64,000 bases of DNA from Candidatus Anderseniibacteriota bacterium (GTDB taxonomy: Bacteria > Patescibacteriota > Andersenbacteria > UBA10190): assembly GCA_040900375.1 (NCBI GenBank), contig JBBDZC010000008.1, positions 2,182 to 66,181 of the forward strand, read 5' to 3'. This document shows positions 43,577 to 59,391 of the stretch, piece by piece. Made by a program: the position numbers and the translations under genes. The number at the start of each line of letters is the position of its first letter. Position 1 is the stretch's first letter. Below the pieces are notes generated by a model. That model worked only from the letters and a program-made list of their open reading frames with translations, did not search any database and was not told where the DNA came from.

Positions 43577-43596
43577 CCTCGCGTTTCACCTGATGT

Positions 43597-45449: not shown

Positions 45450-45458
45450 GCGGCACCT

Positions 45459-47456
45459 ATGATGTCAGCATTGTGGGGCGTGTGGAGCATACTAACCACC
45501 ACGTTTGTGATGCCCTTCGCGCTTTCTCTTGAGCCACTCGCCTTAAGCCTGGCACACGACGTCAACTTTCCCCAGTACATTGCGGCCCAATTGCTCTCCG
45601 CCCCCTTTTCTACCGACCCGCGAGCGGCAGCCGGTCACGTGGCGGCGGTGACCACGGGGAGACCTGACCCCCAGGTTTTTATTGTTAACAACTCCCTGTG
45701 CACCGCCGTCGATGACAATTTGTCCTACCAAGTTATTGTCCGCAACTACGGCGATGTATCGGCCGAGAATGTAACGGTTCAATTTCAACACCCCCAGGGA
45801 ACCAACTTCCGCGACGCTGACCCTAAGCCCAGCCGTGAGTTGGCCGTGGAGCGGTTGGTAGAATGGTTTACGCCAGTGCTGCTGCCCGGCGGCTCACTGC
45901 CCGCCCCCGGCGCTTACTTCTCCAACGCTGTTATTATTACGGTTGATACGCCGTCGTCGAGCGTCACGGTTCGGGTAACTGTCTTCTATAATGGGGGGAT
46001 TGTCCTCAGTGACCATACTATTAACGGCACGTGCGGCGTGCCGTTAGTTGCCCCCGAAGCCTTACCGGCTTCACCCCAGCCGGCCATTGTGTGTGATCCG
46101 GGAGAAATTGGCTGTCGCAGTACGGTGCAGGATCTCCGCCTGAAGCTAGGGGAAAACTACTCGCGCGCGCTGACTGATGCCACCAAGGGTTTTGTGAATT
46201 GTTCAGGTGCGGGCTGCAGCCAACCAGATTTAGGGCCTCGCTTCCAGGAGGCTGTCGCAGATATTATCCCCGGTGATTGCCGGGTGATTGAAGACAATGT
46301 TATCAGCACTCCGCAATTTCAAGATGCGTTAAACCGCCGGGCTGATCCCGCGGCGGCCTACCTGTTCCCTCTGTACGAGAGTGGTCAAGATTTTCAAGAA
46401 CTGACAGCAGCGAATGAGCTACTCGGGATTACTCACTTCCAACGTGTCCGCAATCAGTTGGAAGATACCCATAAGGCTAATTGGCGCGAGTTCTTTGAAA
46501 TTATCAACGACGTTTTTACCCAAAAAATTACGCCTGATGAAGCGTTGGGTAAATACAATGCGGCTGTGCCACAGTGGCAGCAACGCGTCGCCAATTTACA
46601 TGGAGGTTTTTTAAGTGATTACCACAGTACGCGCGACCAAAAAAAGGCAAAATTTCAACCGGTGGCTGACACGGCGACTGCGAATGCTAAAGAATCGCTC
46701 CTACTTGCCTGCGGCCCGCCAGAAAATGACGGTGGTTTGGTGGCCTCGCTGCCCGCCGTGCAACTGGCGTACACCACGGCTCTCGACAACCGAGCGGCGG
46801 CGTATCCGGCGACACAAAGTGATAGCTTGGCAAGCTACGGTAATTATCTAGGAGCAGTCGGCGTCAAGTTCGGGCAGGCACTTAACGATTACAAAAATGG
46901 CAATGAAAGCTCTTTACGGGATTTTCCTGATCGTATTCCGCAATTACCCACCACTGCGTACCAGGCTCTGGGGGCGCCTTACGACAACCATGGGAAACTC
47001 GATGAAGAGAGCGATCAAGCGATTCGACTGCAGCAGTGGGAAGTGGCGCTCGATACGCCAAAGGCCCTGGCGACAACGTGCGAGAGAGAAAATGTTTTTG
47101 CCCCGCCCATAGCGACAACCTGGTGTGAGTCGGGTAGTAAACCCGAGTTTATTATCCAAGAAGCGCCACCGCCAGTACGCCGCGATGTTAGGCCGCCGGT
47201 GCCGATCAACGGGGGAATCACAGCAATTAACCCCAGTAGTGTCAGTGGGATAGCCTGCGGCGGGCAAGCGGGGGACCCGTACTGGGAAGCCAGCTGCCTC
47301 TGTCACTGCGGCCAGTCAGTCCAGTGCGGCAATAGCGTTACGTTGTGCGAACTCTGCTATCCTATCACCCGTCATGATATTTTTGTGACTTCGAACCTCG
47401 AGTGTCTCTGGGATGGCCCGCCTGATGGTTTCCGCCACAAAGATCCTTACTTTTAA
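45459..47456 (+). CDS. Large secreted protein (665 aa) with a DUF11/CARDB-like beta domain and a Cys-rich C-terminus, hypothetical.
   Basis: Signal/anchor. YQVIVRNYGDVSAENVTVQFQHPQGTNF (DUF11-like pattern). C-terminal CGGQAGDPYWEASCLCHCGQSVQCGNSVTLCELC. Confidence 0.6.
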   Translation: MMSALWGVWSILTTTFVMPFALSLEPLALSLAHDVNFPQYIAAQLLSAPFSTDPRAAAGHVAAVTTGRPDPQVFIVNNSLCTAVDDNLSYQVIVRNYGDVSAENVTVQFQHPQGTNFRDADPKPSRELAVERLVEWFTPVLLPGGSLPAPGAYFSNAVIITVDTPSSSVTVRVTVFYNGGIVLSDHTINGTCGVPLVAPEALPASPQPAIVCDPGEIGCRSTVQDLRLKLGENYSRALTDATKGFVNCSGAGCSQPDLGPRFQEAVADIIPGDCRVIEDNVISTPQFQDALNRRADPAAAYLFPLYESGQDFQELTAANELLGITHFQRVRNQLEDTHKANWREFFEIINDVFTQKITPDEALGKYNAAVPQWQQRVANLHGGFLSDYHSTRDQKKAKFQPVADTATANAKESLLLACGPPENDGGLVASLPAVQLAYTTALDNRAAAYPATQSDSLASYGNYLGAVGVKFGQALNDYKNGNESSLRDFPDRIPQLPTTAYQALGAPYDNHGKLDEESDQAIRLQQWEVALDTPKALATTCERENVFAPPIATTWCESGSKPEFIIQEAPPPVRRDVRPPVPINGGITAINPSSVSGIACGGQAGDPYWEASCLCHCGQSVQCGNSVTLCELCYPITRHDIFVTSNLECLWDGPPDGFRHKDPYF

Positions 47457-47478
47457 GGTGTGATACACTTATAGGAGT

Positions 47479-48366
47479 ATGAATGCCACGAATGCCCTTG
47501 GTTTAAAGATGGTCGGGTTAACTAGCGCCATACTTCTTTTATTAGGAGGTTTATGGTGGGGCGGCCGCTACCTGCTGCGACCCGATACCACACCCGCGGC
47601 CACGCCGCTGGCGCAAGGAAGCTTACCTAACGAACGCACTGATAGTGACGGCGATGGGTTGCCCGACAAATTCGAGAGCATCTATCGCACTGATCCTCAT
47701 AACCCCGATACAGATGGCGATGGTGTTAGTGACTATGACGAAATTGCCCAGGGGCGGGACCCAGCCGTGGCGGGTACCCAGGACGAGGTTAAACCGGCGA
47801 CTGGCGAGAACATAACAGCGCTCACGACCTTCACCGAGCGCTACCTCGCGCAACTGCCGACTGCAATCACGCGAGATGACATAATGCAACAAGACCGACT
47901 CGAAGCTTTTGTGAGCCTCAACAAAGGACCGCTCCTCTCCACGCGACCCTCCACGGCAGTGCACACTAGCCCGGCCACCGGTCAAGAAGCTGTTGAGAGC
48001 TATCTTAATAGTATTTCGGCTGTGCACAATGCCCAGTTGCAACCAGTAACCAACGCCGACATTCAACAGGCCGTCACCCTCCAGCTCCAAGGTCAGCCTG
48101 ACACTATTGTGGGAATGACCCATAAGCTCGAGAAAAATTTACAAATTCTCCAAGGGGTAGCGGCGCCCACCGAAGTCGTGGCCCTTCACACCAAGCTCCT
48201 GGCAGCTACGGAATCGCTTCTGGGTAATACCCGCCTGCTCGCCGATATGAAAAATGATTTTGTGGGCGGCTTGATCGGGTCAAAGAATATTGAGGAATTA
48301 GGTCCGGTTTTTCAGCAAATTACCCAGGAAGTACAGGCGCTCGAGACCAAGTACGGCCTGGAATAG
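47479..48366 (+). CDS. N-terminally anchored TSP3-like Ca-binding repeat protein. Paralog of 44487..45449.
   Basis: DSDGDGLPDKFESIYRTDPHNPDTDGDGVSDYDEIAQGRDP. C-terminal region alignable to the 44487 protein (VALHTKLLAATESLL vs VELHKLLLGFTELLA). Confidence 0.65.
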   Translation: MNATNALGLKMVGLTSAILLLLGGLWWGGRYLLRPDTTPAATPLAQGSLPNERTDSDGDGLPDKFESIYRTDPHNPDTDGDGVSDYDEIAQGRDPAVAGTQDEVKPATGENITALTTFTERYLAQLPTAITRDDIMQQDRLEAFVSLNKGPLLSTRPSTAVHTSPATGQEAVESYLNSISAVHNAQLQPVTNADIQQAVTLQLQGQPDTIVGMTHKLEKNLQILQGVAAPTEVVALHTKLLAATESLLGNTRLLADMKNDFVGGLIGSKNIEELGPVFQQITQEVQALETKYGLE

Positions 48367-48397
48367 CTTAACGAAATAGTGGGGGCGTGACTACACC

Positions 48398-49963
48398 TTG
48401 TTTCCTAAAAGTTGTAAACTGAAGCCTATGATCCCTCCTTCACGAGTGGCTAGGTTGAGGTACCGCCAACTATACCGCACCGCCAGCATCAGCCTGCTGG
48501 GCGCCGTGGTGGCTTTACTGGTACTCCTTACGTCGCCGGTAGCCCGCGCTGACCCACATGCCCTCTTCTACACCACGGTTGGCCAACAACAGCTCTTCTT
48601 TAATACACTCGCCGCACTCGATCAGGCGGATTACGTAGAGACCGAGCAGTTGCGGCAGCAGCTCGTGGACGCACGCCAAGCAGCAGCTGAAGCTAACCGG
48701 GCGGGAGAAACTTTCACCGGCATTACGGAAGACCCGGTGATTAGTGAAACACGCACGAACCAGCCAGCAATTTTAACGCGTCCCCTGACGCTTGAAGGAG
48801 ACGATGCGTATACCGCCCAACAAGCTTATAACCACGCCATTGAAGTGGCGCGGCGCACTGCTGTTACTGATCTTGTCACCCGCGTTTTCTGCCAACGAGC
48901 ACTCGGCCGCGAAAAATGTAGTGAGCTGGCAGGCGCTGTGGGCAAGCGCAGTTTCGGTTTCGTGCCAGATCCTCTGAAATGGAAAGCCAATGCTTTTATC
49001 CATGGGACGTTGGGGGCACTGCTATCGGGTACGCCGGAAGATGACCAGATACGAGAAGACTTGGTGAAAAATAAAGATAACTATGAAATTGGCCGCATCT
49101 ATGATCCGGCAATTGCCAGCCTCCGCAGTAAAGTCAGTGGTGATGCCGAAAAGGAAAAAATGCTCGAGGCTGCTTTAGAACAAACGGCGCTTTCTTTTTT
49201 ACCCCCGCCCGTGAATGGCAATGTCTACGACGGCTTAGAGATTGATGCCGATGGCACTGTTAACCTAGCGGTGGCACCGGGCGGGAATGGTAATTTGGCG
49301 CTGGCGGCACTTGAGCCCACTGACGCTGGCTACTCGGCGGTCTGGGAGAAAAAAATGTACGAGCTGATAGAATTCCCCTGGATTCTTAAGGTAACTGGCG
49401 AGGCTGCCGCTAAGAACATCGAAACGATTGCGGCCACCCTAGAAGAGCAGGGTGAGGTAGCCGACATCAGAAAACTTGTCGATGGGCAAAAAGTCTGTAC
49501 TGGTGAGACTTGCAAAATCAGTAAGGGTGATATTTTACCCACGATTGAGGTACCGGCAGCGGCCAAGATCGCTCAAGTATACGCCTTAGCTAACGTACTC
49601 GGCACACTCGACAGCACGATCGTGCACGCCGTGCCGGATACTATTGCCTCGCCCGCCGGGCAGAACCGCCTGGTCAAACAAACCGGTTTAGTGGAGGGTA
49701 TTCAAACCTCGGTGGAAGCAGGAGATAGTACTGGCCAAGTCGCCGGCGAGATAACCTTTGACTCGACTGACTATAGCCGCGCGCCGAGCCTGGGGGTGAA
49801 CCCCGTCATTCCGCACCGCGAGAGCGAACTAGCGCATGCGATTGAGGCGCTCTTTCCTGGGTTTGCCAGCGGTACAAATGCCTGCGGCTGCGGGTTGGCT
49901 GAAACAACAAATGATTTTGGCGCGGCCATTTTAGCAAAAATTAACCGCTTTACGCCGCTATGA
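48398..49963 (+). CDS. Large secreted hypothetical protein (521 aa) with N-terminal signal anchor.
   Basis: LLGAVVALLVLLTSPVARA signal. No recognised domain. Stop overlaps the start of the VirB6-like gene. Confidence 0.55.
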   Translation: MFPKSCKLKPMIPPSRVARLRYRQLYRTASISLLGAVVALLVLLTSPVARADPHALFYTTVGQQQLFFNTLAALDQADYVETEQLRQQLVDARQAAAEANRAGETFTGITEDPVISETRTNQPAILTRPLTLEGDDAYTAQQAYNHAIEVARRTAVTDLVTRVFCQRALGREKCSELAGAVGKRSFGFVPDPLKWKANAFIHGTLGALLSGTPEDDQIREDLVKNKDNYEIGRIYDPAIASLRSKVSGDAEKEKMLEAALEQTALSFLPPPVNGNVYDGLEIDADGTVNLAVAPGGNGNLALAALEPTDAGYSAVWEKKMYELIEFPWILKVTGEAAAKNIETIAATLEEQGEVADIRKLVDGQKVCTGETCKISKGDILPTIEVPAAAKIAQVYALANVLGTLDSTIVHAVPDTIASPAGQNRLVKQTGLVEGIQTSVEAGDSTGQVAGEITFDSTDYSRAPSLGVNPVIPHRESELAHAIEALFPGFASGTNACGCGLAETTNDFGAAILAKINRFTPL

Positions 49964-51894
49964 GGAGAGCTGGGTTACGAAAGCGAGTGCTGGGTACAGC
50001 TTGGCTCGTTGCTACAACCTTATATTTACTGACTCCGCCAGCCCAGGCCGTGCAAGTCCCGCCCGACTCGCTGCCACCAGCTCGAGTGGTCGCCGAAGAC
50101 CGCAGCACATTAACGCAGCAAGGCTGTATTGAACAGGTAGTTACCGAGAATATGGTTGATGTGCCGCCGGGCAAACCATATCGCGTGGCGGCGGCCGATC
50201 GTCTGCCGGGCACTCTCTTTTTCTGTGATCCCCAGGTGACCGCTCAACTTACTATCACACAAGGGCAGGTCGAAGGTGCTTTACTAAATGCATTTTGTGC
50301 GAGCTTGGGAGGCATTGTCGGAGGACCCTTGGGAGCCGGTTTAGGATTTTTAGGCTGTCAGGTGGGGGAAGTTGTAGTTAATAAAGTAGGAGCAGCAGTG
50401 GGCGAGACTGTTGCTGGGTGGGCGATTGATGCAATTCAAACACTGCTAAATTTTATTGCGGGTCTTGGTTTGTGGGTGCTAGCTCGAGCTTTAGAACTTG
50501 TTCAGTGGACTTTAGGTGCTAATCAGTTTATTACTAATCCCCTGGTTATCGCCGGCTGGCCGTTTATTCAAGGCCTCGCCAACATGGGTTTTATCCTAGC
50601 ACTCCTCTTTATCGCTTTCTCCACCACGCTCGGGATAGAAAACATGGGCGCGCGGCGGATGTTGCCACGGCTGCTCTTAGCCGCAATTTTGATCAACTTC
50701 AGCCTCATTATTAGCGGCGTCATTATTGATCTCACCAAAGTACTCATGGCAATTATGGCTACCACGTTGAGCCTCGGTGGTTTTTCATTGAACACCGTGA
50801 TGGCTTTCCTACAGCAAAATTCGCGCCTTTTGGAAATTACTGCCCTGCCTTTCGATACAGAAGGACTTAGTGCTGCCACATTGGCATTAGTTCAGATAGC
50901 CACTACAGCGTTGTTGATTTGGATTCTGGCAATTGCAGTAATCTGGCTCGCGATTGGTTTAATTATTCGCTATGTCATACTGGTATTTCTCCTCATTATT
51001 TCTCCGCTAGCATACTTGGCTTTTGCGTTCCCCAATGCGGGTGGTTTGGCTTCCCGATGGTGGCGAGAATTTTTCAAGTATGTCTTCTATGGACCAGTCG
51101 CTTTATTCTTCTTACTCATTGCTGCCCAAATTAATAGCCTCGGCAGTATCGCGTTATTCGGTGGTAGCAGTAGCATACTTCAGGACCTTCTTCTCTGGGC
51201 TCTCATGGTAGCCATGATCTTTGCGGCGGCAATTTTCAGCAAACAAGTGGGCGGCACAGTTGGTGTTATGGCCGTTAATTTTGTGAATAACAGAACAAAG
51301 CAGTTAGGACGAGGTGGTAGATGGGTAGGTCAAAAAGCAGCGGGTGCAGCCTATAAACGTAGTGGCATCAAAGACTTTGTGGATGAACGAAAAAAGTATA
51401 ATGAAAAACAGGAGCAGAAAAGAAGCAAAACATCGCTGGGGAGGCGCGTGGGTCAAGATTTCTATGCTTCACCAAAAAAGCGAGCAGAGACAGCCCAGGC
51501 AAGACAGGCAGCAGAGGATGTTAAAAAGGCTGGCGGTGGAGCTCCAGCTAATCACCCGGTCTTTACACCGCGTAATTTACGAAGTGAAGAAGTTGGTCGC
51601 GCTCTATCCTCACAACAAATTAGCACCATTATTGCTCAACCACCTTCAGCTGATAAATATAAACAAGTTTCCGCTATGGTGCAAAACATTGAAATCGTCA
51701 ATAATATGACAGCTGCGCATAAAGATGACATTATTGACGAGCTTCAAGATTTGTTAATGACTCCTCATGTTCCTGGGGCAGGACCGGCTGCTGTTGCTGA
51801 TCACGAGCAGGCTAAAAAAACAGCGCAACAAATACTAAATGAGTTCCATGCTACCAGGCGCCGTGCAGGTGAGCAGGGTTCTGAGAAAAAATGA
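49960..51894 (+). CDS. VirB6/TrbL-like polytopic membrane protein (putative T4SS inner-membrane channel component) with a long hydrophilic Lys-rich C-terminal tail.
   Basis: Signal plus about 8 TM helices with Trp/Pro-rich loops (GWPFIQGLANMGFILALLFIAF..., LLIWILAIAVIWLAIGLIIRYVILVFLLIISPLAYLAFAF). Position immediately upstream of PrgI/VirB4, as in Gram-positive T4SS loci. Confidence 0.5.
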   Translation: MRRAGLRKRVLGTAWLVATTLYLLTPPAQAVQVPPDSLPPARVVAEDRSTLTQQGCIEQVVTENMVDVPPGKPYRVAAADRLPGTLFFCDPQVTAQLTITQGQVEGALLNAFCASLGGIVGGPLGAGLGFLGCQVGEVVVNKVGAAVGETVAGWAIDAIQTLLNFIAGLGLWVLARALELVQWTLGANQFITNPLVIAGWPFIQGLANMGFILALLFIAFSTTLGIENMGARRMLPRLLLAAILINFSLIISGVIIDLTKVLMAIMATTLSLGGFSLNTVMAFLQQNSRLLEITALPFDTEGLSAATLALVQIATTALLIWILAIAVIWLAIGLIIRYVILVFLLIISPLAYLAFAFPNAGGLASRWWREFFKYVFYGPVALFFLLIAAQINSLGSIALFGGSSSILQDLLLWALMVAMIFAAAIFSKQVGGTVGVMAVNFVNNRTKQLGRGGRWVGQKAAGAAYKRSGIKDFVDERKKYNEKQEQKRSKTSLGRRVGQDFYASPKKRAETAQARQAAEDVKKAGGGAPANHPVFTPRNLRSEEVGRALSSQQISTIIAQPPSADKYKQVSAMVQNIEIVNNMTAAHKDDIIDELQDLLMTPHVPGAGPAAVADHEQAKKTAQQILNEFHATRRRAGEQGSEKK

Positions 51895-52397
51895 TGCAAG
51901 ACGATACATACAAAAGTAGGCCAGTGGGATCACTATTAACACGCGAGCGCAGTGAAGAAGAGCGCTACTTGAATGAGTTGCCTGATTTGCCACCAAGTTT
52001 GATATCTCTACTGATGTCAGCTAAAACAGGAGCTTTTATCCGTGGCTTGGTAAGAAATTATGACCTAGCCCTCGAAAAAGCGGCTATGATTGCTTTTATG
52101 GTTTTACAAATCAGCTTTGGTGAAAAAACATTACTACAATTATCTACCATGCTGGCATCTGATCTACAGCTGCCACTTGAAAAAGCACAGTCCATGGCCC
52201 AAGAAATTGAACGTGAACTCTTTGCGCCCATTATGCTGGAACTCAATGCGTATCTCACCCAGAAAAGAAAAATTACAGGCGGTAGCACCAGTACGCCAGT
52301 CTCGTCATCCCCGAGTGCTGCCGGCGGCGCGCGCAATGTGCTGGACCTCAAAAGTCAGCCGCGGCCACCACAGCCACCGGCAATCCCTCAACGATAA
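51891..52397 (+). CDS. Hypothetical protein with Ser/Thr/Pro-rich C-terminal tail, within the T4SS-like operon.
   Basis: 168 aa. Overlaps the upstream stop (ATGA). Confidence 0.45.
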   Translation: MMQDDTYKSRPVGSLLTRERSEEERYLNELPDLPPSLISLLMSAKTGAFIRGLVRNYDLALEKAAMIAFMVLQISFGEKTLLQLSTMLASDLQLPLEKAQSMAQEIERELFAPIMLELNAYLTQKRKITGGSTSTPVSSSPSAAGGARNVLDLKSQPRPPQPPAIPQR

Positions 52398-52416
52398 TTG
52401 GTAATCTGTACTACGT

Positions 52417-52875
52417 ATGCGCTTCCAAGTTCCCCAATTCGTGGACATCGAGGATAAAATCATCGGGCCGTTTACCCTGAAGCAGTTTTTGATTTATTTG
52501 AGCGGCGTGCTGGGGCTGATCCCGCTGTACCTGATTTTTGATCTCTCGCTGTTTATCACCGTGGCTATTCCCATCATGGGCATCGCCGTACTGTTTGCTC
52601 ACCTGCGTTTCCACGGCAAGAGCCTGTTCGCCGTCATCGCTAACGCCCTGCGGTTTTTCCTGCGCGGCCAAGTATTCGTCTGGCAGCGGACTGATCAACC
52701 CAAGCTCTTGCGGATTGCCGGAGAAGAATACGGAGATTTTTCGCCTGACGCTATGCTCACTATCCCCGAAGATAGCGTTTCGTCGCTCTCCCGCCGCGCC
52801 CGCGCCCTGGAAACCGAAGGCAAGCTTATCAAAGAGGACGCGCCTGACCCGTTGGCGGATGAAGCGGAAGAATAA
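52417..52875 (+). CDS. PrgI/VirB3-like small 2-TM protein, directly upstream of VirB4.
   Basis: MRFQVPQFVDIEDKIIGPFTLKQFLIYLSGVLGLIPLYLIF...ITVAIPIMGIAVLFAHL. Matches PrgI-family architecture and gene position. Confidence 0.55.
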   Translation: MRFQVPQFVDIEDKIIGPFTLKQFLIYLSGVLGLIPLYLIFDLSLFITVAIPIMGIAVLFAHLRFHGKSLFAVIANALRFFLRGQVFVWQRTDQPKLLRIAGEEYGDFSPDAMLTIPEDSVSSLSRRARALETEGKLIKEDAPDPLADEAEE

Positions 52876-52953
52876 TTGACAACATGATTCGTTCTATTGA
52901 AAAGCAAAATAATTACAGGTTACAAGTTATCCGTTACCAGTTACCATTTTATT

Positions 52954-53640
52954 ATGTTTGAAATGCAACAGCGTAAAAAGAATAAGCCGTCGCAGCAGTT
53001 AATCCGCATCGCCCACATTCGCGATGGCGTAGCGATTTTAAACGACGGGACGATGCGGGCAACACTGATGGTCTCCTCGGTCAACTTTGCCTTGAAATCA
53101 GAGGATGAACAAAATGCCATTGTTTATGCCTACCAAGATTTTCTCAATGCTCTCGATTTTCCGCTGCAGGTCACCGTCTCCTCGCGCAAAATGGATATCA
53201 CACCGTACCTGGAAGAAGTGAAAGAGCGGCGCAATAAACAGCAAAACGAGCTACTGCGGCTGCAGATGGATGAGTATATTAACTTCGTGGGTGAATTAGT
53301 GAAGAGCGCGGATATTATGACGAAGACGTTCTTTATCACCGTTCCTTTCTCGGTCCAGCAAAACAAAAGAGAAGGATTCTTGGACCGCTTCTTTAAAAGC
53401 GCCAAGGGGGTAGCGGGTAAGCTCACACTCACTGATCAAGAGTTTGAGCACAATCGGGCCCAGCTGCTCCAGCGAGTGGAGCAGGTGGCGGTGGGGCTGC
53501 GGGCCATAGGCTTACGTCTAATTCCGCTGCAAACCCAGGAATTACTTGAACTCTTTTATACCATGTACAATCCGGCCACGTCGCGCAACCAGCGCCTACA
53601 CAACGCCGCCCAGTTGAAAGTTCAAGAAACTGAAGTCTAG
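52954..53640 (+). CDS. virB4: VirB4 N-terminal domain, encoded as a separate ORF (track ORF starts at TTG 52897).
   Basis: IRIAHIRDGVAILNDGTMRATLMVSSVNFALKSEDEQNAIVYAYQDFLNALDFPLQVTVSSRKMDITPYLE... matches the N-terminal membrane-associated domain of Gram-positive-type VirB4/TraE ATPases. Confidence 0.6.
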   Translation: MFEMQQRKKNKPSQQLIRIAHIRDGVAILNDGTMRATLMVSSVNFALKSEDEQNAIVYAYQDFLNALDFPLQVTVSSRKMDITPYLEEVKERRNKQQNELLRLQMDEYINFVGELVKSADIMTKTFFITVPFSVQQNKREGFLDRFFKSAKGVAGKLTLTDQEFEHNRAQLLQRVEQVAVGLRAIGLRLIPLQTQELLELFYTMYNPATSRNQRLHNAAQLKVQETEV

Positions 53641-53732
53641 AAGGCTGTCTAGTACGCAATCGCGGGTCAATGGTATGATGAAGTTATGCGGTCTCAAGCA
53701 TGGTTTTTTGTTGTTGATCCTTCATCCTTTCT

Positions 53733-55580
53733 ATGAGTGTTTTTAGTGATGTTGTGGGTGTGCTCAAAGGAAAGCAGTCTGCCTCATCGGATGAGGCCGA
53801 GCGAGCGGCCCAGGCAACACTCAAGCAGTTTAACCAGGGGATTTCCTCTCTGAAGGATATTATTGCCCCGGCGGGCTTTCGGGTCACGCCCCAGTACATT
53901 GAAATTGATGGGAAATTTGCTACAACGCTCTTTGTGACGACCTATCCGCGCTTTTTAGACACTAATTGGTTTGCCCCAATCGTTAATTTCGACGTGGAGT
54001 TCGATGTTGCCATGTTTATTTACCCGCAAGACTCCGCTGCGATTTTAAAACAGCTCCGTAAGCGAGTGACGCAAGTTTCAGCGTCGATTGCCATGCAGTC
54101 AGAAGCGGGCAAAGTCCGCGATCCCCAGTTAGAGACGGCGTATCAAGACATTGAGGAGCTCCGTGATCGCTTAGTGCAGGGGACCGAGCGCTTCTTTCAA
54201 TTCGGGCTGTATCTCACGATTTACGGCAAAACCCAAGAAGAACTCGATGATATTTTGTCGCAAATAGAGGTGTTGCTCGAGGGCCGCCTTGTGTACGCCA
54301 AGCCCGCCCTATTTCAAATGGAGCAAGGCTTTACGTCTACTCTGCCGCTCGGCCGCGACGAGCTTGGAGTGACGACTAATATGAATTCTTCACCACTCTC
54401 CACGAGTTTTCCCTTTGTTAGTTCTGACCTTACTAGTAATTCTGGCGTGCTCTACGGGATTAACTTGCACAACAACAGCCTCGTGCTCTTCGACCGCTTT
54501 AGTTTAGAAAATGCCAATATGGTTATTTTGGCTAAGTCTGGCGCGGGCAAGAGCTACACGGTCAAACTAGAGATCCTCCGCAGCCTCATGTTTGGCACCG
54601 AGGTGATTGTAATTGATCCCGAGCAAGAATACCGCTACCTCTCGGATGCGGTCGGCGGCAGCTACTTGCGAATTGCGATTGCCTCTGATCATCGGATTAA
54701 TCCCTTCGATTTGCCCGCCTTAGCTGAAGACGACAATCCTGAATCAATTTTGCGCGAGAATATCACGCGGCTTACCGGACTGATCTCGCTCATGATTAAC
54801 GGCATGTCGCCCGAGGAGCAATCGCTGGTTGACCGGGGCTTATGGGAAACCTACGCCATTAAAGATATTACCCGCGGCACGCGCTGGACTAAGCCAGATG
54901 TGCCTACCCTGCAAGATTTCTACCAGATTATCCACGACATGGCGGGGGGCAACAGCATTGCGGTGCGCCTCGAACGCTATGTCGAAGGTACTTTTGCTGG
55001 CGTCTTTAACCGGCCGACAAATATTGATCTCAACCAGCAGCTGATTGTTTTTAATGTGCGCGACATGGAAGAGGAGTTGCGGCCGATTGCGATGTACGTG
55101 ATCTTGGGCTTCATCTGGAATCGCGTCCGCAGCCAGCTCAAGAAGCGCTTGCTCGTCGTGGATGAGGCCTGGATCATGATGCAGCACGAGGAATCAGCCC
55201 AATTCTTATTCTCAATGGCGAAACGAGCCCGCAAATACTTCCTCGGTGTAACCACAATTACGCAGGACATTTCTGATTTCTTACAATCCAAGTACGGTAA
55301 ACCCATTATTACTAACTCTTCCTTGCAACTGCTCTTGCGGCAATCGCCAGCCGCGATTGATCTGCTCGCCCAAGTTTTCTATCTCACCGACCATGAGAAA
55401 TTCCGGCTTCTGGAAAGCGACGTGGGCGAGGGCATCTTTTTTGCCGGCTTAAAACACGTAGCGATCAAAGTGGTCGCCAGCTATGCCGAGGACCAAGTGA
55501 TTACTTCTGATCCCCAGCAGGTGTTAGCGATTGAAGCGGCTAAGCGCGAGATGGCGCAAAATCAACGAACCGCCCGCTAG
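53733..55580 (+). CDS. virB4: VirB4/TrbE/CagE-family T4SS ATPase (middle and C-terminal ATPase domains).
   Basis: Walker A ILAKSGAGKSYT. Walker B LLVVDEAW. Middle-domain match IIAPAGFRVTPQYIEIDGKFATTLFVTTYPRF. 615 aa. Confidence 0.85.
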   Translation: MSVFSDVVGVLKGKQSASSDEAERAAQATLKQFNQGISSLKDIIAPAGFRVTPQYIEIDGKFATTLFVTTYPRFLDTNWFAPIVNFDVEFDVAMFIYPQDSAAILKQLRKRVTQVSASIAMQSEAGKVRDPQLETAYQDIEELRDRLVQGTERFFQFGLYLTIYGKTQEELDDILSQIEVLLEGRLVYAKPALFQMEQGFTSTLPLGRDELGVTTNMNSSPLSTSFPFVSSDLTSNSGVLYGINLHNNSLVLFDRFSLENANMVILAKSGAGKSYTVKLEILRSLMFGTEVIVIDPEQEYRYLSDAVGGSYLRIAIASDHRINPFDLPALAEDDNPESILRENITRLTGLISLMINGMSPEEQSLVDRGLWETYAIKDITRGTRWTKPDVPTLQDFYQIIHDMAGGNSIAVRLERYVEGTFAGVFNRPTNIDLNQQLIVFNVRDMEEELRPIAMYVILGFIWNRVRSQLKKRLLVVDEAWIMMQHEESAQFLFSMAKRARKYFLGVTTITQDISDFLQSKYGKPIITNSSLQLLLRQSPAAIDLLAQVFYLTDHEKFRLLESDVGEGIFFAGLKHVAIKVVASYAEDQVITSDPQQVLAIEAAKREMAQNQRTAR

Positions 55581-56258
55581 GTGGCGGCTGACACCCCTAT
55601 GGCTGATGCAGTTGCCCAAGCCCAGCAACGAGAAGAGAGAGCTCGCGCCGCACTAGAGGCGCGAAAAAATCAAGCTCGCAGGGCGGGCGGCAGAGCTGGA
55701 GCCAGGGGCGGAGAGGCGGCGGGAGCCGCGGCTGGGCAGGCTGGCGGCATGGCGGCGGGAGGAGCGGCCGGGGCTGGGGTCGGGACAGTGGTGGGAGGTA
55801 TACGGGGAGCAATTGCCGGCGCACCGGCGGGCGGGGTAGGGGCCATTCCCGGAGCTTTTGCCGGCGCGGCCGAGGGCGCGGCCGAATTTGGTGCCCAGGG
55901 GGCGCGCATGGGCGGCAGTGTCGGCAGAAAAGTCGGGCGATATACCGGTAAATACGCGGGGAGAAAAGCAGGGGAAGCAGCGGCCAGTACGGCGGCCAGT
56001 GCCGCTAGTGTGGATAAAAAGATACAAATTAGGATGGCGCAAGCGCAAGCGGCGCGGGCTCAACAAGAAGCGATGGCGGAGCAAGACGTGGGTGATGTCC
56101 TCGAGCGAAAGATTAAAAAAACGATCAGTTATCCCATTAAAAAAGTTTTCTCATTCGCCCTGCCCTTTCTCGTGCTCGGTTTATTACTTCTGATGTTCTT
56201 CTTTATTATTCTGATGGTCGTACGCCAAGCGACAAATTCGGGAGGTAACCTCTCATGA
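55581..56258 (+). CDS. Gly/Ala-rich low-complexity protein with a C-terminal TM anchor (GTG start), in the T4SS-like operon.
   Basis: AAGAAAGQAGGMAAGGAAGAGVG... repeats. C-terminal FALPFLVLGLLLLMFFFIILMVV. Long antisense ORFs here are artefacts of the GC-rich repeats. Confidence 0.45.
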   Translation: MAADTPMADAVAQAQQREERARAALEARKNQARRAGGRAGARGGEAAGAAAGQAGGMAAGGAAGAGVGTVVGGIRGAIAGAPAGGVGAIPGAFAGAAEGAAEFGAQGARMGGSVGRKVGRYTGKYAGRKAGEAAASTAASAASVDKKIQIRMAQAQAARAQQEAMAEQDVGDVLERKIKKTISYPIKKVFSFALPFLVLGLLLLMFFFIILMVVRQATNSGGNLS

Positions 56259-56779
56259 TCAACCAACATTTCTTTGCCATACTTTTCACCACTCTCCTGC
56301 TTACGAGTAGTATGATGCTAGCTTTACCCGATGCTTTCGCTCAAGGCGCAAGTGGTGCTAGTTGTAGTGATAACAATCCGTGTCCTGAATATTACATTTG
56401 CCAGAAGTCTCAAGGGAGCACCACGGGAACTTGCGTGTGTCCATTTGGCGAATTTGAAGCGCCAATTAACGAGAAGGTTTCCGGCGATATTTGTGCGTAC
56501 CTGGCCAATAATCAAAGCACACCTTTTCTCTCAACGGTAAAAGTAATTGTTAATTTTTTGACAGCGATCGTGGTCGCCATCGGGCTCATTATGGTCGTCG
56601 CGGCCGGCTACGTGTATATGACGGCGGGTGGGGATGCGAGCAAAGTGGGAAAGGCTAAGACAATGATCCAAGCCGCCCTATTCGGCATTGCGCTGGCGCT
56701 GACGGCCTTCCTGGTTCTCAATACTATTAGCCCACAATTTGCTTCGGAGGTTAAAGAGCCAGAGTTTAATACGCCGTAG
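56255..56779 (+). CDS. VirB2/TrbC-like pilin candidate. Signal peptide, Cys-rich N-domain, then two hydrophobic helices separated by a short charged loop.
   Basis: MINQHFFAILFTTLLLTSSMMLALPDAFA signal. VKVIVNFLTAIVVAIGLIMVVAAGYVYMTAGGDASKVGKAKTMIQAALFGIALALTAFLVL resembles the T4SS pilin core. Confidence 0.45.
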   Translation: MINQHFFAILFTTLLLTSSMMLALPDAFAQGASGASCSDNNPCPEYYICQKSQGSTTGTCVCPFGEFEAPINEKVSGDICAYLANNQSTPFLSTVKVIVNFLTAIVVAIGLIMVVAAGYVYMTAGGDASKVGKAKTMIQAALFGIALALTAFLVLNTISPQFASEVKEPEFNTP

Positions 56780-58019
56780 TGTCAGCGAGGGTGAGGGCGA
56801 GCAAAACAAAGTGAAGCGCGGCCAAATCGTTTTTCCAAAAAATGGTATCAACGAGACCGAAAAGCAGGAGAGAGAGCAGCGATAACAAGAGCGCTTGAGT
56901 ATGAGGCTTACGCCACTTAGCGCGCCAGAAGATAGCGACATGGAGACCAATAAAGGAGAAAAGTCCGAGTAAACCGGTATTGAGCCATAGGGATAAAAGC
57001 CAGTTATGCGGGTCACGCACGACAAACTCTGGCAGGGGTTGGGGGCCTGTGGATAAAGACGCGGCATAATCTTGAAAACGTTCATGGAGCACCTGTTGAT
57101 AGGCTGGTTCAAATTGTCCTAAGCCAATACCGAGGAGAGGATGGTGCTGCAGTAGCTCAATACTGACACTCCACAACTGTTGACGGACGGATAGGGAATT
57201 AGCCTGGCCACTCGTCCAGGGATTAACTAAATACGCCAGCCGGCCCGAGTAAACCAGGCTACCAGCCGCCAGGACTATAAAGATCATGAGATACCATTTG
57301 GCGCGGCGCGGCGGGGGGAGCCACGCCGTAATGCCAACTAGGAGTGTGGCCACGACCGCAACGAGAGCGGCCGCTGATTGGGTCGCCAAGAGAGCCACGC
57401 TCATGGTGAGGATGCCGAGACGTGTTGCCCACGAGTGATCGCCGGCTGCCAGGGAGCGCCACAGCGCCAACACTAAGAGCGGGGCCAGCCAGAGAGCGAG
57501 GGAGTTAGGCACATCATAGACACTCGTAATGCGTTCGTCGCGGCCAATCTGGGTTAACCCCCACAGAGCCGTAGCGGTGCCCGACCAAACGAGTCCCCGG
57601 ATGAGCCGGTGGGCGATTAATTGGTTCTGCGCCGCGCTGAAGATAAGCCAGCTGAAGAGAAGAGGAATAAAAATCCAACTTTTTAAAATACCGAGGCTCA
57701 CCCGTGTCTGCGGTGAAATAATGGTGGCGATAATACTGGCGCCTAAGAAACAGAGCCCAAAGATAAGGACAGATCGCGGCATTTTCTGGGCGGCTATCAG
57801 CCAGGAGTGGCGCACGGCTCTTTGGCAAAGACCAAGAATAGCGACGACGATCACGCTGATCTCAAAAACATTTGTAGGCAGCCCGAAGAGGGAGAGACGC
57901 AGAAGATACGCTGGCAGTAAGAAGATGGTGATGACAAGAGCCGTATGGTAGTGCCACAGACCCAAGGGCACCAGGGACAGCATGGCGAACCCGATTAAGG
58001 TGTCAGAGAGAAGATTCAT
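56766..58019 (-). CDS. O-antigen-ligase-like (Wzy_C domain) polytopic membrane protein. Candidate oligosaccharyltransferase/ligase.
   Basis: HHPLLGIGLGQF...PHNWLLSLWLNTGLLGL matches the Wzy_C signature. About 10 TM. 3' end overlaps the pilin gene by 14 nt (convergent). Confidence 0.7.
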   Translation of the reverse strand: MNLLSDTLIGFAMLSLVPLGLWHYHTALVITIFLLPAYLLRLSLFGLPTNVFEISVIVVAILGLCQRAVRHSWLIAAQKMPRSVLIFGLCFLGASIIATIISPQTRVSLGILKSWIFIPLLFSWLIFSAAQNQLIAHRLIRGLVWSGTATALWGLTQIGRDERITSVYDVPNSLALWLAPLLVLALWRSLAAGDHSWATRLGILTMSVALLATQSAAALVAVVATLLVGITAWLPPPRRAKWYLMIFIVLAAGSLVYSGRLAYLVNPWTSGQANSLSVRQQLWSVSIELLQHHPLLGIGLGQFEPAYQQVLHERFQDYAASLSTGPQPLPEFVVRDPHNWLLSLWLNTGLLGLFSFIGLHVAIFWRAKWRKPHTQALLLSLLSLLLFGLVDTIFWKNDLAALHFVLLALTLADTTAY

Positions 58020-59391
58020 GGGAAGGATCGGTCGTAAGTTCTAGAGCGATGAGCACAATGATTACAATCAGGAGGTGAGCATATAACAAACCATTAATGA
58101 ATTGAGCCTGCACCATCCACGCGAGCAAGCTGGCCGCGACCGCCAGGCTGCCAGGCTGCCGATAGAGCAACCACCGGCGGACAAAGATTAAGCCTATGGC
58201 TACCCAGGGCAGTATAAACAACGCGGCGCCGATGATGCCGGTAGTCACCCATAGGGTAAGGAGACTGTTATCAGCTCCGGCCCGAGAATGAATGGTGAAA
58301 TTATCTAGTAAACCCGCGGCGGCGGCCGCAAATTGGTAGGCATTATAGCCTACGCCAGTGCCTGCGTGTGCGACCGCCAAAGGCCAAACAGCCGCCACGG
58401 ATTCTAGCCGCAGCGTCACAGTGGGATCATACGTAACAAGTCCCCACACACGATCGCGGAGTAACCATAGGCTGGTAGTCGCCAGTGCTAAACATATACC
58501 GAGAATACTTAGCAGGCGCATGGTGGCAGGCACTCTGTTCTTTGGTCGCGATCGCCCGATCACCCACAAGGGTGAAATCAGAGTCCCGGCAATTAGCAGG
58601 GCACTAACGGCGCTACGGGATTGGGTGAGGAGAAGAGCAACGAGGAGGGCACCAGTGACTCCGAGGAGTAGTAATAGGTTATAGGGCACAGAGTCTTGCG
58701 GGGCGGGCCGCGCCAGTAAACTAATAACCCAGGGAAGTGCCAGCACGAGCAGACCGCCAAAAAAATTGGGATCGAGCCACGTGGAGACTAAACGATTTTG
58801 ATGCGGGTCCCACCCAGAACCAAAACCAATGAGATTGGGCACCAAGAAGAGCTGCAATGCGCCGAGTCCAACTAGCAATGATAGCGTGATTAAGAGACCG
58901 GTGCGCAAGCAAGAGCGATAGAAAGAAAATTGCGCCAGAAAAAGCAGCGTCGGTAGCAGCGCGAGGTAAGTAACCAAGCGTACCCAGTAGGCCCCCGCAA
59001 TTAGGGTGGCCGAGGAGCCCAGATCAGGGGCATGAATGATGAGAGTCCATAAACTCCAGGCAAGAAAAGGTAGGAATAAGAGGTATGAGATGAGCGGCAG
59101 AGAATGCGAAGGTGACACTGCCTGGTTGCCGTGAAGGGGTAATTTTCTGGGACGGAGCCACCGCAGGAGCAGCGCCGAGGCTAGGACAAGGACAACGGCA
59201 ACATCACTGACGAGTAATCCCCCTCCCTGACCCGGCAAGGGGAGCCGCACCAGTTGGCCCGCTACCAGCGAACCCATAAGGACACCGAGGGCAATGGCGG
59301 GAAAACGCACTACTCCCAAACTTGCCACGCTCAATGCACCGAGGGCGAAAAAAGCCGGTAGAGGCGCCGCCAGAATCGTTGCAGTAAGCAT
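58003..59391 (-). CDS. Second O-antigen-ligase-like (Wzy_C domain) membrane protein.
   Basis: AHAGTGVGYNAY...HSRAGADNSLLTLWVTTGIIG. About 11 TM. Confidence 0.65.
   Translation of the reverse strand: MLTATILAAPLPAFFALGALSVASLGVVRFPAIALGVLMGSLVAGQLVRLPLPGQGGGLLVSDVAVVLVLASALLLRWLRPRKLPLHGNQAVSPSHSLPLISYLLFLPFLAWSLWTLIIHAPDLGSSATLIAGAYWVRLVTYLALLPTLLFLAQFSFYRSCLRTGLLITLSLLVGLGALQLFLVPNLIGFGSGWDPHQNRLVSTWLDPNFFGGLLVLALPWVISLLARPAPQDSVPYNLLLLLGVTGALLVALLLTQSRSAVSALLIAGTLISPLWVIGRSRPKNRVPATMRLLSILGICLALATTSLWLLRDRVWGLVTYDPTVTLRLESVAAVWPLAVAHAGTGVGYNAYQFAAAAAGLLDNFTIHSRAGADNSLLTLWVTTGIIGAALFILPWVAIGLIFVRRWLLYRQPGSLAVAASLLAWMVQAQFINGLLYAHLLIVIIVLIALELTTDPSHESSL

What the first reader, a model, noticed from the sequence alone, without database searches (positions are those of the whole stretch)
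52897..55580. VirB4 ATPase encoded as two separate ORFs (N-terminal domain and ATPase body) in different frames with a 92-nt spacer
52954..53640 encodes the characteristic VirB4 N-terminal domain (IRDGVAILNDGTMRATLMVSSVNF...LDFPLQVTVSSRKMDITPYLE). 53733..55580 encodes the middle plus Walker A/B ATPase domains. The 92-nt gap has stops in all frames and the second ORF has its own ATG. This is either a naturally split VirB4 (two-polypeptide ATPase), a recent inactivating frameshift or indel (the system decaying), or an assembly error. Each interpretation changes whether the locus is functional.
Basis: seen in the sequence. Interest (0 to 1): 0.55.

Follow-up and report, generated by a model that had tools for sequence, protein, structure and literature searches.

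The report
Naturally two-gene VirB4 (TrsD-like plus ATPase)
The secretion-system motor protein VirB4 really is encoded here as two adjacent genes, but this is the normal, conserved and already published arrangement in this bacterial group (and in some Gram-positive plasmids), not a broken gene or an assembly error.

Summary
ORF1 (52954-53640, 228 aa) and ORF2 (53733-55580, 615 aa) lie in different frames, 92 nt apart. Together they cover a full-length VirB4 without overlap. One detail is wrong: a third frame is open across the spacer.

- All 73 measurable junctions in independent assemblies are split. The gaps run from -32 to +636 nt and use all three relative frames.
- More than 1000 ORF1 homologues were found, and the 120 listed are all stand-alone proteins of about 230 aa.
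- Non-synonymous divergence is low although synonymous sites are saturated.
- Walker A and Walker B motifs are intact.
- Complete plasmids of cultured Bacillota carry the same PrgI, TrsD-like, VirB4 order.
- pSK41 TrsD/TrsE is split at the same position.
- Rare fused relatives align end to end with ORF1 followed by ORF2.

The window comes from a Candidatus Andersenbacteria (Patescibacteria) genome assembled from a metagenome. Quinonero-Coronel et al. 2025 already report TrsD, a remote homologue of the VirB4 N-terminus. It was the most abundant type IV secretion component they retrieved in Patescibacteria, usually lies beside virB4, and is essential in Southlakia.

Verdict: ordinary and already known, so interest is low. 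The one small extra is an extended -10-like motif conserved in the spacer of close relatives, which suggests an internal promoter.

The parts
52417..52875 (+). PrgI-family (VirB3-like) small membrane protein, 152 aa, encoded immediately upstream of the split VirB4
   Evidence: Pfam PF12666 PrgI at 32.1 bits, above the cut-off of 27. The same gene sits directly upstream of the TraC-like gene in the relatives examined and in Geobacillus plasmid pGspE55-1.
52954..53640 (+). ORF1: TrsD-like / TraC-like protein, 228 aa. It is the first half of the VirB4 N-terminal domain, encoded as a separate polypeptide. An in-frame TTG at 52897 is a possible but less likely start.
   Evidence: NCBIfam CD1110 VirB4 positions 2-119 and TrsD/TraD model positions 21-152 of 201. 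It is 100% identical to an annotated 228-aa protein, and all listed homologues carry a precomputed PF26593 hit. It aligns to residues 8-211 of the fused relative P0249. The AlphaFold2 model has pLDDT 85, and its top 14 PDB fold matches are all R388 TrwK/VirB4. It aligns end to end with pSK41 TrsD.
53641..53732 (.). 92-nt intergenic spacer. Its length varies among relatives and it is not part of the conserved split.
   Evidence: Stops are present in the ORF1 frame and the ORF2 frame, and the third frame is open. No RNA structure is predicted beyond chance, z-score +0.80. Gaps in close relatives are 22, 64, 108, 272 and 376 nt. Other relatives have a 4-nt overlap or a 1-nt gap.
53671..53679 (+). 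TGGTATGAT, an extended -10-like motif. It is a candidate internal promoter for virB4 (inferred).
   Evidence: TG-n-TAT-n-AT occurs in all 6 Andersenbacteria-clade spacers of at least 18 nt and in none of 24 spacers from more distant relatives. The background rate is 0.31 per kb, and these 6 spacers total 934 nt. The motif is not enriched across the window as a whole: 8 found against 5.95 expected.
53733..55580 (+). ORF2: VirB4 body, 615 aa. It holds the second half of the N-terminal domain and the RecA-like ATPase domain.
   Evidence: NCBIfam CD1110 family at 376.4 bits, above the cut-off of 325, covering positions 172-733 of 752. Pfam P-loop_TraG, AAA_10 and DUF87. PDB 4AG5 VirB4 C-terminal domain at E 3e-44, and TrwK residues 306-736. 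It aligns to residues 213-791 of the fused relative P0249 at 52% identity.
54531..54554 (+). Walker A motif AKSGAGKS (ORF2 residues 267-274)
   Evidence: Read directly from the translation. Conserved in the fused relatives.
55149..55166 (+). Walker B motif LLVVDE (ORF2 residues 473-478)
   Evidence: Read directly from the translation. Conserved in the fused relatives.
49960..52397 (+). Two conserved upstream genes of the cluster. The first is a 644-aa hydrophobic protein (a VirB6-like role is inferred only). The second is a 168-aa protein.
   Evidence: Neither has a Pfam hit. Genes of similar size occupy the same positions in relatives.
55581..56779 (+). Downstream cluster genes. The first is a Gly/Ala-rich 225-aa protein with a hydrophobic C-terminus. 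The second is a 174-aa VirB2/T4SS-pilin-like protein.
   Evidence: Weak Pfam hits below the cut-off: T4SS_pilin at 21.4 bits and TrbC at 21.1 bits. T4SS_pilin genes occupy the same position in relatives.

Best explanation
This is a functional, anciently split VirB4. It belongs to the chromosomal type IV secretion system of a Candidatus Andersenbacteria (Patescibacteria) bacterium, a system related to those of monoderm (single-membrane) bacteria.

ORF1 is a TrsD-like (Pfam TraC-like) protein that carries roughly the first 210 residues of a canonical VirB4, which is the first half of its N-terminal domain. ORF2 carries the second half of that domain and the RecA-like ATPase domain.

The likely mechanism is as follows. 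The two genes are translated as separate polypeptides. These associate non-covalently to rebuild a VirB4-like protomer. The ORF1 module most likely docks the motor onto the PrgI/VirB3 membrane protein encoded just upstream. The assembled ATPase then energises assembly of, or transport through, the secretion channel.

What is shown: the homology, the non-overlapping collinear coverage, conservation of the split, purifying selection and intact ATPase motifs. What is inferred: the physical association of the two polypeptides and the docking role on PrgI. That inference rests on analogy with fused relatives and with the R388 structure of the VirB3-VirB4 complex.

The 92-nt spacer is lineage-specific intergenic DNA. 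It probably carries an internal promoter for virB4.
For: Coverage is complementary and collinear.
- ORF1 covers CD1110 model positions 2-119 and ORF2 covers positions 172-733.
- ORF1 residues 13-209 align to P0249 residues 8-211 at 40% identity. ORF2 residues 23-600 align to P0249 residues 213-791 at 52% identity. P0249 is a fused 797-aa relative in the same PrgI context.
- P0249 itself aligns to TIGR00929 VirB4_CagE positions 18-725.

The split is conserved.
- ORF1 has 1026 homologues, and the 120 listed are all 225-249 aa.
- A search of one representative per 50%-identity protein cluster found 2224 hits. Of the top 150, 148 are stand-alone and only 2 are fused.
- All 73 measurable junctions are split, none fused. 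The median gap is 9 nt, the range is -32 to +636 nt, and all three relative frames occur.

The genes are under selection. dN is 0.07-0.26 while dS is saturated, for both ORFs.

The fold agrees. The AlphaFold2 model of ORF1 has pLDDT 85, and its top 14 PDB matches are R388 TrwK/VirB4.

The same architecture occurs in cultured organisms.
- Pontibacillus and Geobacillus plasmids carry it.
- pSK41 has TrsC, TrsD (227 aa) and TrsE (672 aa) in the same order. TrsE starts at CD1110 position 183, against 172 for ORF2.

The literature agrees. [quoted passage not shown] Of 2272 homologues, 1664 lie next to virB4, and the gene is essential in Ca. Southlakia epibionticum ML1 (PMC12102498).
Against: No direct evidence shows that the two polypeptides bind each other or PrgI. 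No proteomic data exist for this organism. In 7 Gracilibacteria, Peregrinibacteria, Peribacteria or unassigned Patescibacteria loci, the ORF1 homologue has no VirB4 within about 4 kb downstream. This agrees with the exception noted in PMC12102498 and shows that tight linkage is not obligatory. The fold match to TrwK is modest, with query-normalised TM-score about 0.45 and E about 2e-3. ORF1 scores far below the NCBIfam TrsD cut-off, 23 bits against 200.
Confidence: 0.85

Rival explanations
1. The TrsD-like protein is an independent accessory factor. On this view it is a diverged paralogue of the VirB4 N-terminal module with its own role, such as regulator, assembly chaperone or substrate adaptor, and it is not a structural half of VirB4. 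ORF2 would then be a self-sufficient ATPase that is naturally short at its N-terminus.
For: [quoted passage not shown] In 7 Gracilibacteria, Peregrinibacteria, Peribacteria or unassigned Patescibacteria loci the homologue is not followed by virB4 within 4 kb. Many stand-alone homologues carry extra C-terminal extensions and reach 300-440 aa.
Against: ORF1 and ORF2 cover a full-length VirB4 without overlap or duplication. Fused relatives with 40% and 52% identity to the two parts exist in the same gene context. ORF2 lacks the segment that ORF1 supplies. The adjacent gene order is kept from Patescibacteria to Bacillota plasmids.
Confidence: 0.1
2. A recent frameshift or indel inactivated a formerly single virB4 gene, so the system is decaying.
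For: Only the raw appearance supports this: two ORFs in different frames with a non-coding gap.
Against: The split is present in 73 of 73 related loci. Both halves have full-length homologues, with dN 0.07-0.26 and saturated dS. The ORF1 C-terminus and the ORF2 N-terminus and start codon align with those of relatives. The neighbouring T4SS genes are intact open reading frames in conserved order, and the ATPase motifs are intact. Stops in both coding frames mean that no single indel separates the current state from a fused one.
Confidence: 0.01
3. An assembly or sequencing error created an artificial break in a single gene.
For: The window comes from a metagenome-assembled genome.
Against: The same two-gene arrangement appears in dozens of independent assemblies from different projects and assemblers. 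It also appears in complete plasmid sequences of cultured isolates. Close relatives have a partly alignable spacer of 64-376 nt.
Confidence: 0.01
4. Programmed recoding, by ribosomal frameshifting or bypassing across the spacer, produces a single fused VirB4 polypeptide.
For: Nothing specific supports this. In some relatives the two ORFs overlap by 4 nt, which is more typical of translational coupling than of recoding.
Against: Gap length ranges from -32 to +636 nt and the relative frame takes all three values (0, 1 and 2), so no conserved recoding geometry exists. The spacer has no predicted structure beyond chance. Both coding frames contain several stops in the spacer.
Confidence: 0.01

Closest known systems
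TrsD-like plus VirB4 gene pair of the Patescibacteria (CPR) type IV secretion system (Quinonero-Coronel et al. 2025, Microb Genom, PMC12102498; essentiality from Wang et al. 2023 as cited there)
   Same: Same phylum and same gene order: PrgI/VirB3, then the TrsD homologue, then VirB4, then VirB2-like pilins. The paper retrieved TrsD as the most abundant T4SS component and describes it as a remote homologue of the VirB4 N-terminal portion. Of 2272 homologues, 1664 lie next to virB4. The window locus is one of these systems.
   Different: There is no substantive difference. The paper treats TrsD as a separate component of unknown function. As far as I read, it does not spell out that TrsD and the short VirB4 are complementary, collinear halves of a full-length VirB4, or that rare fused forms exist. 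This window and its closest relatives also have an unusually long spacer.
TrsD / TrsE of staphylococcal conjugative plasmids pSK41 and pGO1 (MPF_FATA, pGO1 subclass), and TraD / TraE of pIP501 by the NCBIfam family name
   Same: The order is the same: small membrane protein TrsC, then TrsD (227 aa), then the VirB4-like ATPase TrsE (672 aa), with a 14-nt gap. The split point is the same. TrsE begins at CD1110 model position 183 and window ORF2 at 172. ORF1 aligns end to end with TrsD, and ORF2 aligns with TrsE at 24% identity, E 8e-43.
   Different: The relationship is very distant. ORF1 and TrsD share 20% identity, and ORF1 scores 23 bits against the NCBIfam cut-off of 200. The plasmid system is conjugative. 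The window system is chromosomal, and no relaxase or coupling protein was found among the flanking ORFs from 39668 to 59391 that I scanned.
Split CD1110-family VirB4 on Bacillota plasmids (Pontibacillus sp. ALD_SL1 NZ_CP062975; Geobacillus subterraneus pGspE55-1)
   Same: In Geobacillus an annotated PrgI-family gene is followed by a hypothetical protein homologous to ORF1 (318 aa) and then the ATPase. In Pontibacillus a small unannotated protein sits in the PrgI position, ahead of a 274-aa ORF1 homologue and a CD1110-family VirB4 ATPase. The ATPases are 621-636 aa, and the two genes overlap by 11-14 nt.
   Different: ORF1 shares only 29% identity. The N-terminal-module proteins are longer. The hosts are plasmids of cultured Firmicutes.
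Canonical single-chain VirB4 (R388 TrwK, PDB 7O41/8RTB; fused Patescibacteria-type relatives P0249 and P0239; Myxococcus pYRE 858-aa protein)
   Same: All sequence segments are present in the same order, the ATPase motifs are the same, and the upstream VirB3/PrgI partner is the same in P0249 and P0239.
   Different: These are one polypeptide. The window has two, broken at about residue 212 inside the N-terminal domain.
SCO6880-family proteins of Actinobacteria (NCBIfam NF042935)
   Same: Weak hits suggest another way of dividing the same modules. The window's PrgI protein matches model positions 13-80, ORF1 matches 131-297, and ORF2 residues 92-207 match 363-476. That pattern implies a VirB3-like part fused to a whole VirB4 N-terminal domain without the ATPase.
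   Different: All three scores, at 16-24 bits, are far below the cut-off of 60, so this is only a hint. The break point differs, falling after the N-terminal domain rather than inside it.

Membership tests
VirB4-like conjugal transfer ATPase, CD1110 family (NCBIfam NF045971) - ORF2 | Whole-protein score above the curated cut-off of 325 bits | tested here: met
   376.4 bits, E 2.8e-112, model positions 172-733 of 752.
VirB4-like conjugal transfer ATPase, CD1110 family (NCBIfam NF045971) - ORF2 | Full-length coverage of the model, including the N-terminal ~170 positions | tested here: not met
   ORF2 starts at model position 172. Positions 2-119 are supplied by ORF1. The two genes together cover the model, but neither does alone.
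VirB4 / AAA+ secretion ATPase (general) | Intact Walker A (GxxGxGK[ST]) and Walker B (hhhhDE) motifs | tested here: met
   AKSGAGKS at ORF2 residues 267-274 and LLVVDE at 473-478. Sequence match to the VirB4 C-terminal domain structure 4AG5 at E 3e-44.
VirB4 / AAA+ secretion ATPase (general) | ATP hydrolysis and hexamer formation | not testable with these tools
   Requires biochemistry.
TrsD/TraD family conjugative transfer protein (NCBIfam NF041427) - ORF1 | Score above the curated cut-off of 200 bits | tested here: not met
   23.3 bits, E 4.5e-5, model positions 21-152 of 201. The positive control, pSK41 TrsD, scores 227.6 bits. ORF1 is a remote homologue, not a member of this narrow subfamily.
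TrsD/TraD family conjugative transfer protein (NCBIfam NF041427) - ORF1 | About 200-230 aa, encoded directly upstream of a VirB4-like ATPase that lacks its N-terminal ~180 residues, and downstream of a VirB3-like gene | tested here: met
   The window has PrgI, then a 228-aa protein, then a 615-aa ATPase. pSK41 has TrsC, then TrsD (227 aa), then TrsE (672 aa), and TrsE starts at CD1110 position 183.
Pfam PF26593 TraC-like - ORF1 | Hit to the Pfam model | tested here: inconclusive
   A precomputed PF26593 hit is recorded for the identical protein P0001 and for all 120 listed homologues. It is named TraC-like. The local Pfam scan returned no family for ORF1, so I could not reproduce the score; I presume, without having checked, that the local copy lacks this model.
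VirB4 N-terminal domain (structural) - ORF1 | Fold similarity to the N-terminal region of a solved VirB4 | tested here: met
   The AlphaFold2 model has pLDDT 85.2. The top 14 Foldseek PDB matches are all R388 TrwK/VirB4 chains, with probability 0.85-1.00, E 2e-3 to 6e-2 and query-normalised TM-score 0.31-0.45. The match is modest but exclusive. The tool does not report which TrwK residues were aligned.
Patescibacteria T4SS (MPF_FATA-related) locus | Co-located VirB3/PrgI, TrsD, VirB4 and VirB2-like pilin genes on the chromosome | tested here: met
   PrgI at 52417-52875, TrsD-like at 52954-53640, VirB4 at 53733-55580, and a weak pilin-like protein at 56255-56779. The order is syntenic in relatives. 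The description is in PMC12102498.

The most novel reading that the evidence does not exclude
The break inside the VirB4 N-terminal domain could be a regulated feature, not a neutral gene fission. The TrsD-like module would be a separately expressed, dissociable adaptor that controls when and in what ratio the ATPase motor engages the PrgI/VirB3 membrane platform. Three observations leave room for this. A conserved extended -10-like element in the Andersenbacteria spacer suggests separate transcription of virB4. One contig has the prgI-trsD block inverted relative to virB4. In 7 loci, some labelled Gracilibacteria, Peregrinibacteria or Peribacteria, the two genes are unlinked.
Probability: 0.12. 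Interest if true: 0.4.

Novelty: already known. Interest (0 to 1): 0.12.

Why it matters
For annotating this genome, the locus should be read as an intact and probably functional type IV secretion system. It should not be flagged as a pseudogene, and ORF1 should be named as a TrsD-like VirB4 N-terminal module instead of a hypothetical protein. In a cultivated relative, according to the literature, this system and its TrsD homologue are essential for growth attached to a host cell. More generally, the conserved break point shows that the first ~210 residues of VirB4 form an autonomous module that works when supplied as a separate chain. That is mildly useful for structural and engineering work on T4SS ATPases, but the gene pair itself is already published.

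Tried and rejected
- Pseudogene or frameshift: rejected by the 73 of 73 split junctions and by purifying selection.
- Assembly error: rejected by independent assemblies and by plasmids of cultured isolates.
- Programmed recoding: rejected because gap length and relative frame vary freely and the spacer has no predicted structure beyond chance, z +0.80.
- Known RNA element in the spacer: the Rfam gathering-threshold scan of the whole window found only rRNA, tRNA and a group I intron, with nothing near 53641-53732.
- Terminator or sigma-70 consensus promoter in the spacer on the + strand: the simple scan found none. The TG-n-TAT-n-AT motif was found only by aligning relatives, and it is not enriched across the window.
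- A 16-codon upstream ORF (MRSQAWFFVVDPSSFL) whose TGA overlaps the ORF2 ATG: considered as a translational-coupling device. By eye, the short reading frames upstream of virB4 in the close relatives' spacers differ in sequence and end at different distances from the ATG, so I did not pursue it and ran no dedicated comparison.
- dN/dS ratio: it could not be computed because synonymous sites are saturated under the NG86 method, so only dN is reported.
- Sequence-profile search of ORF1 against PDB sequences: only a chance hit, so the fold search was needed.
- pGO1 accession FM207042: not in the plasmid collection, so pSK41 was used instead.
- Guglielmini et al. 2014 main text: it does not mention TrsD by name. 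The homology statement is therefore cited from PMC12102498.
Full report
**1. What is in the sequence**

On the + strand there is an ORF from 52897 (TTG) or 52954 (ATG) to the TAG at 53638-53640. A second ORF runs from the ATG at 53733 to 55580. They are 92 nt apart and in different frames.

The 228-aa version of ORF1, starting at 52954, is identical over its whole length to a protein annotated in a Candidatus Andersenbacteria metagenome-assembled genome. The rest of the window fits a Patescibacteria (CPR) origin (my reading). The rRNA operon is interrupted by protein-coding genes, and the 23S gene contains a group I intron.

The ORF1 frame stops at 53638 and 53650. The ORF2 frame has stops up to five codons before its ATG. 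The third frame is open across the gap. Because both coding frames are blocked, no single indel could join the ORFs.

**2. What the two ORFs are**

ORF2 passes the curated cut-off of the NCBIfam CD1110 family of VirB4-like conjugal transfer ATPases, with 376 bits against 325. It covers only model positions 172-733 of 752. It has P-loop_TraG, AAA_10 and DUF87 domains. It matches the solved VirB4 C-terminal domain 4AG5 at E 3e-44 and R388 TrwK residues 306-736. Its Walker A and Walker B motifs are intact.

ORF1 matches positions 2-119 of the same CD1110 model. It also matches the N-terminus of other VirB4 models and, weakly, the TrsD/TraD family. An AlphaFold2 model built from 52 homologues is confident, with pLDDT 85. 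Its 14 best matches in the PDB are all chains of R388 TrwK/VirB4.

So the two ORFs cover a VirB4 without overlap. The break lies inside the N-terminal domain, not between that domain and the ATPase domain.

**3. The split is real and old**
- A search of 5.8 billion proteins gave 1026 homologues of ORF1. The best 120, at 66-100% identity, are all 225-249 aa.
- A search of 1.84 billion cluster representatives gave 2224 hits. Of the top 150, 148 are stand-alone proteins of 157-443 aa and two are fused to the ATPase.
- I fetched 80 loci from GTDB species representatives and 10 more around close homologues, and measured the junction in each.
- All 73 measurable junctions, the window's included, are split with the ATPase gene immediately downstream, and none is fused. 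The median gap is 9 nt and the range is -32 to +636 nt. Ten junctions overlap, and the relative frame takes all three values.
- Three further loci end before the junction.
- Seven loci have the ORF1 homologue without an ATPase within about 4 kb. They are labelled Gracilibacteria, Peregrinibacteria, Peribacteria or simply Patescibacteria group. The literature notes the Gracilibacteria exception.
- Between the window and four relatives, non-synonymous divergence is 0.12-0.26 for ORF1 and 0.07-0.15 for ORF2. Synonymous sites are saturated. Both halves are therefore under purifying selection.

This rules out a recent frameshift, an assembly error and programmed recoding.

**4. The two halves equal one VirB4**

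Rare fused relatives exist in the same gene context, directly after a PrgI gene. P0249 (797 aa) lies near dnaA. P0239 (898 aa) was seen on 5 contigs, including two different sequencing runs.

ORF1 residues 13-209 align with P0249 residues 8-211 at 40% identity. ORF2 residues 23-600 align with P0249 residues 213-791 at 52% identity. P0249 aligns with the general VirB4_CagE model from position 18 to 725.

ORF1 is therefore the missing N-terminal piece of ORF2, not an extra paralogous copy.

**5. The same arrangement occurs outside this phylum**

A tblastn search of ORF1 against 72,556 plasmids found 88 records, mostly from Bacillota.
- In Geobacillus subterraneus pGspE55-1 an annotated PrgI-family gene precedes a separate hypothetical protein homologous to ORF1 (318 aa) and a 636-aa DUF87 ATPase, with the last two genes overlapping by 14 nt.
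- In Pontibacillus sp. ALD_SL1 a small unannotated protein occupies the PrgI position, ahead of a 274-aa ORF1 homologue and a 621-aa CD1110-family VirB4 ATPase, which overlap by 11 nt.
- In Myxococcus pYRE the hit lies inside one 858-aa protein.
- In the well-studied staphylococcal plasmid pSK41 the order is TrsC, TrsD (227 aa), TrsE (672 aa).
- TrsE begins at CD1110 position 183, essentially where ORF2 begins at 172.
- ORF1 aligns end to end with TrsD at 20% identity, and ORF2 aligns with TrsE at 24% identity, E 8e-43.

**6. Comparison with what is known**

Quinonero-Coronel et al. 2025 (PMC12102498) surveyed type IV secretion genes across Patescibacteria. They report that TrsD was the most abundant component retrieved. 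They describe it as a protein with remote homology to the N-terminal portion of VirB4 and with no assigned function. They found 2272 homologues, of which 1664 lie next to virB4. One is essential in Ca. Southlakia epibionticum ML1.

Pfam also has a family, PF26593 TraC-like, that covers all homologues found here. The gene pair in this window is an ordinary example of that published arrangement.

What my analysis adds is small. It demonstrates explicitly that the pair is a complementary, collinear split at the same position as TrsD/TrsE. It also shows that fused forms exist among close relatives.

**7. How it most likely works**

What is shown: two separately encoded parts under selection, always adjacent to a VirB3-like PrgI gene, and together equivalent to one VirB4.

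What is inferred: the two polypeptides assemble non-covalently into a VirB4-like protomer. The ORF1 module contributes the surface that docks on PrgI/VirB3 at the membrane. This follows the R388 complex, where VirB3 contacts the VirB4 N-terminal domain (my own knowledge of that structure; entries 7O41 and 8RTB appear). The ATPase then powers the secretion machine.

The main rival is that TrsD-like proteins act as independent accessory factors. The unlinked genes in seven loci keep it alive at about 10%.

**8. The spacer**

The 92-nt gap is not a conserved part of the split. Andersenbacteria relatives have gaps of -4, 1, 14, 22, 64, 108, 272 and 376 nt. The spacer RNA has no predicted structure beyond chance, z +0.80, and no Rfam match.

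Aligning the spacers shows one conserved element, TG-n-TAT-n-AT, at window 53671-53679 as TGGTATGAT. It is present in all 6 Andersenbacteria spacers of 18 nt or more and in none of 24 spacers from more distant relatives. The background rate is 0.31 per kb, and these 6 spacers total 934 nt. It resembles an extended -10 promoter element, so virB4 may have its own promoter in this clade.

One short contig, L087, has the prgI-trsD block inverted relative to virB4. The 3' part of the spacer stays with virB4 there. If the contig is real, this fits independent transcription. A single short contig assembled from public reads could also be chimeric.

**9. Verdict**

The pseudogene and assembly-error interpretations are refuted. 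The feature is already known and ordinary for this phylum, so interest is low.

Noticed in passing
window 18505-28597: The rRNA operon is interrupted by protein-coding genes. The order is 16S (18505-19993), tRNA-Ile, a CCA-adding/poly(A)-polymerase-family ORF (20502-21956), tRNA-Ala, an ORF with the mechanosensitive-channel conserved TM helix domain (22837-23592), 23S (24741-28265) and 5S. The 23S gene spans 3525 nt against a 2925-nt model and contains a group I intron at 27552-27862. About 300 further inserted bases are unexplained.
   Followed up: partly
window 53671-53679; L005 6744; L007 4683; L088 3366; L089 2745; L090 1147: An extended -10-like motif, TG-n-TAT-n-AT, is conserved in the trsD-virB4 spacer of all six Andersenbacteria relatives whose spacer is at least 18 nt. 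It is absent from 24 spacers of more distant relatives. It may be an internal promoter for virB4. In L007 it lies only 6 nt before the ATG, which would imply a leaderless transcript.
   Followed up: partly
L087 1-3346 (Logan contig SRR22388280_1825035): In the closest relative found (ORF1 86% identical), the prgI-trsD block is inverted relative to virB4, so the genes diverge from a 146-nt region. The 3' part of the spacer, which resembles the window's, remains upstream of virB4. This could be a real inversion or an assembly chimera.
   Followed up: partly
window 53686-53736: A 16-codon upstream ORF (MRSQAWFFVVDPSSFL) in the ORF1 frame ends with a TGA that overlaps the ORF2 ATG, in the sequence ATGA. 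By eye, the short reading frames upstream of virB4 in the close relatives' spacers differ in sequence and spacing, so this is probably chance; I ran no dedicated comparison.
   Followed up: partly
window 52876-52966: The PrgI stop and the ORF1 ATG at 52954 are 78 nt apart, whereas close relatives have 9-24 nt. An in-frame TTG at 52897 would give 21 nt. A TATTAT hexamer overlaps the ATG at 52954 and lies 7 nt before a second in-frame ATG at 52966. The true start of ORF1 is therefore not fully certain.
   Followed up: no
L057, L060, L073, L081, L083, L084, L086: In seven loci the TrsD-like gene has no VirB4 ATPase within about 4 kb downstream. Their records are labelled Gracilibacteria, Peregrinibacteria, Peribacteria or simply Patescibacteria group. 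This matches the Gracilibacteria exception mentioned in PMC12102498.
   Followed up: no
window 39668-41077 (-), 44487-45449, 47479-48366, 56766-59391 (-): Several genes flank the T4SS core. They are an M23 peptidase with LysM domains (a possible VirB1-like cell-wall hydrolase), two proteins with bacterial TSP3 repeats, and two Wzy_C (O-antigen-ligase-like) membrane proteins. The TSP3 and Wzy_C genes are syntenic with the T4SS in relatives.
   Followed up: no
window 52417-55580, compared with NCBIfam NF042935: The window's PrgI protein, ORF1 and the N-terminal part of ORF2 give weak hits in consecutive order along the actinobacterial SCO6880 family model (positions 13-80, 131-297 and 363-476). 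This hints that SCO6880 proteins are a VirB3 part fused to a VirB4 N-terminal domain, which would be another way of dividing the same modules. All scores are far below the cut-off.
   Followed up: no
window 52954-53640 versus 53733-54140: There is weak similarity, with pairwise E of about 2-7, between the start of the ORF1 module (IRDGVAILNDG...) and the start of the ORF2 module (SLKDIIAPAG...YIEIDGKF...). It shows up in the alignments to the fused proteins. It could reflect an ancient internal duplication in the VirB4 N-terminal domain, which would make the break fall between two repeats. The similarity is not significant as it stands.
   Followed up: no
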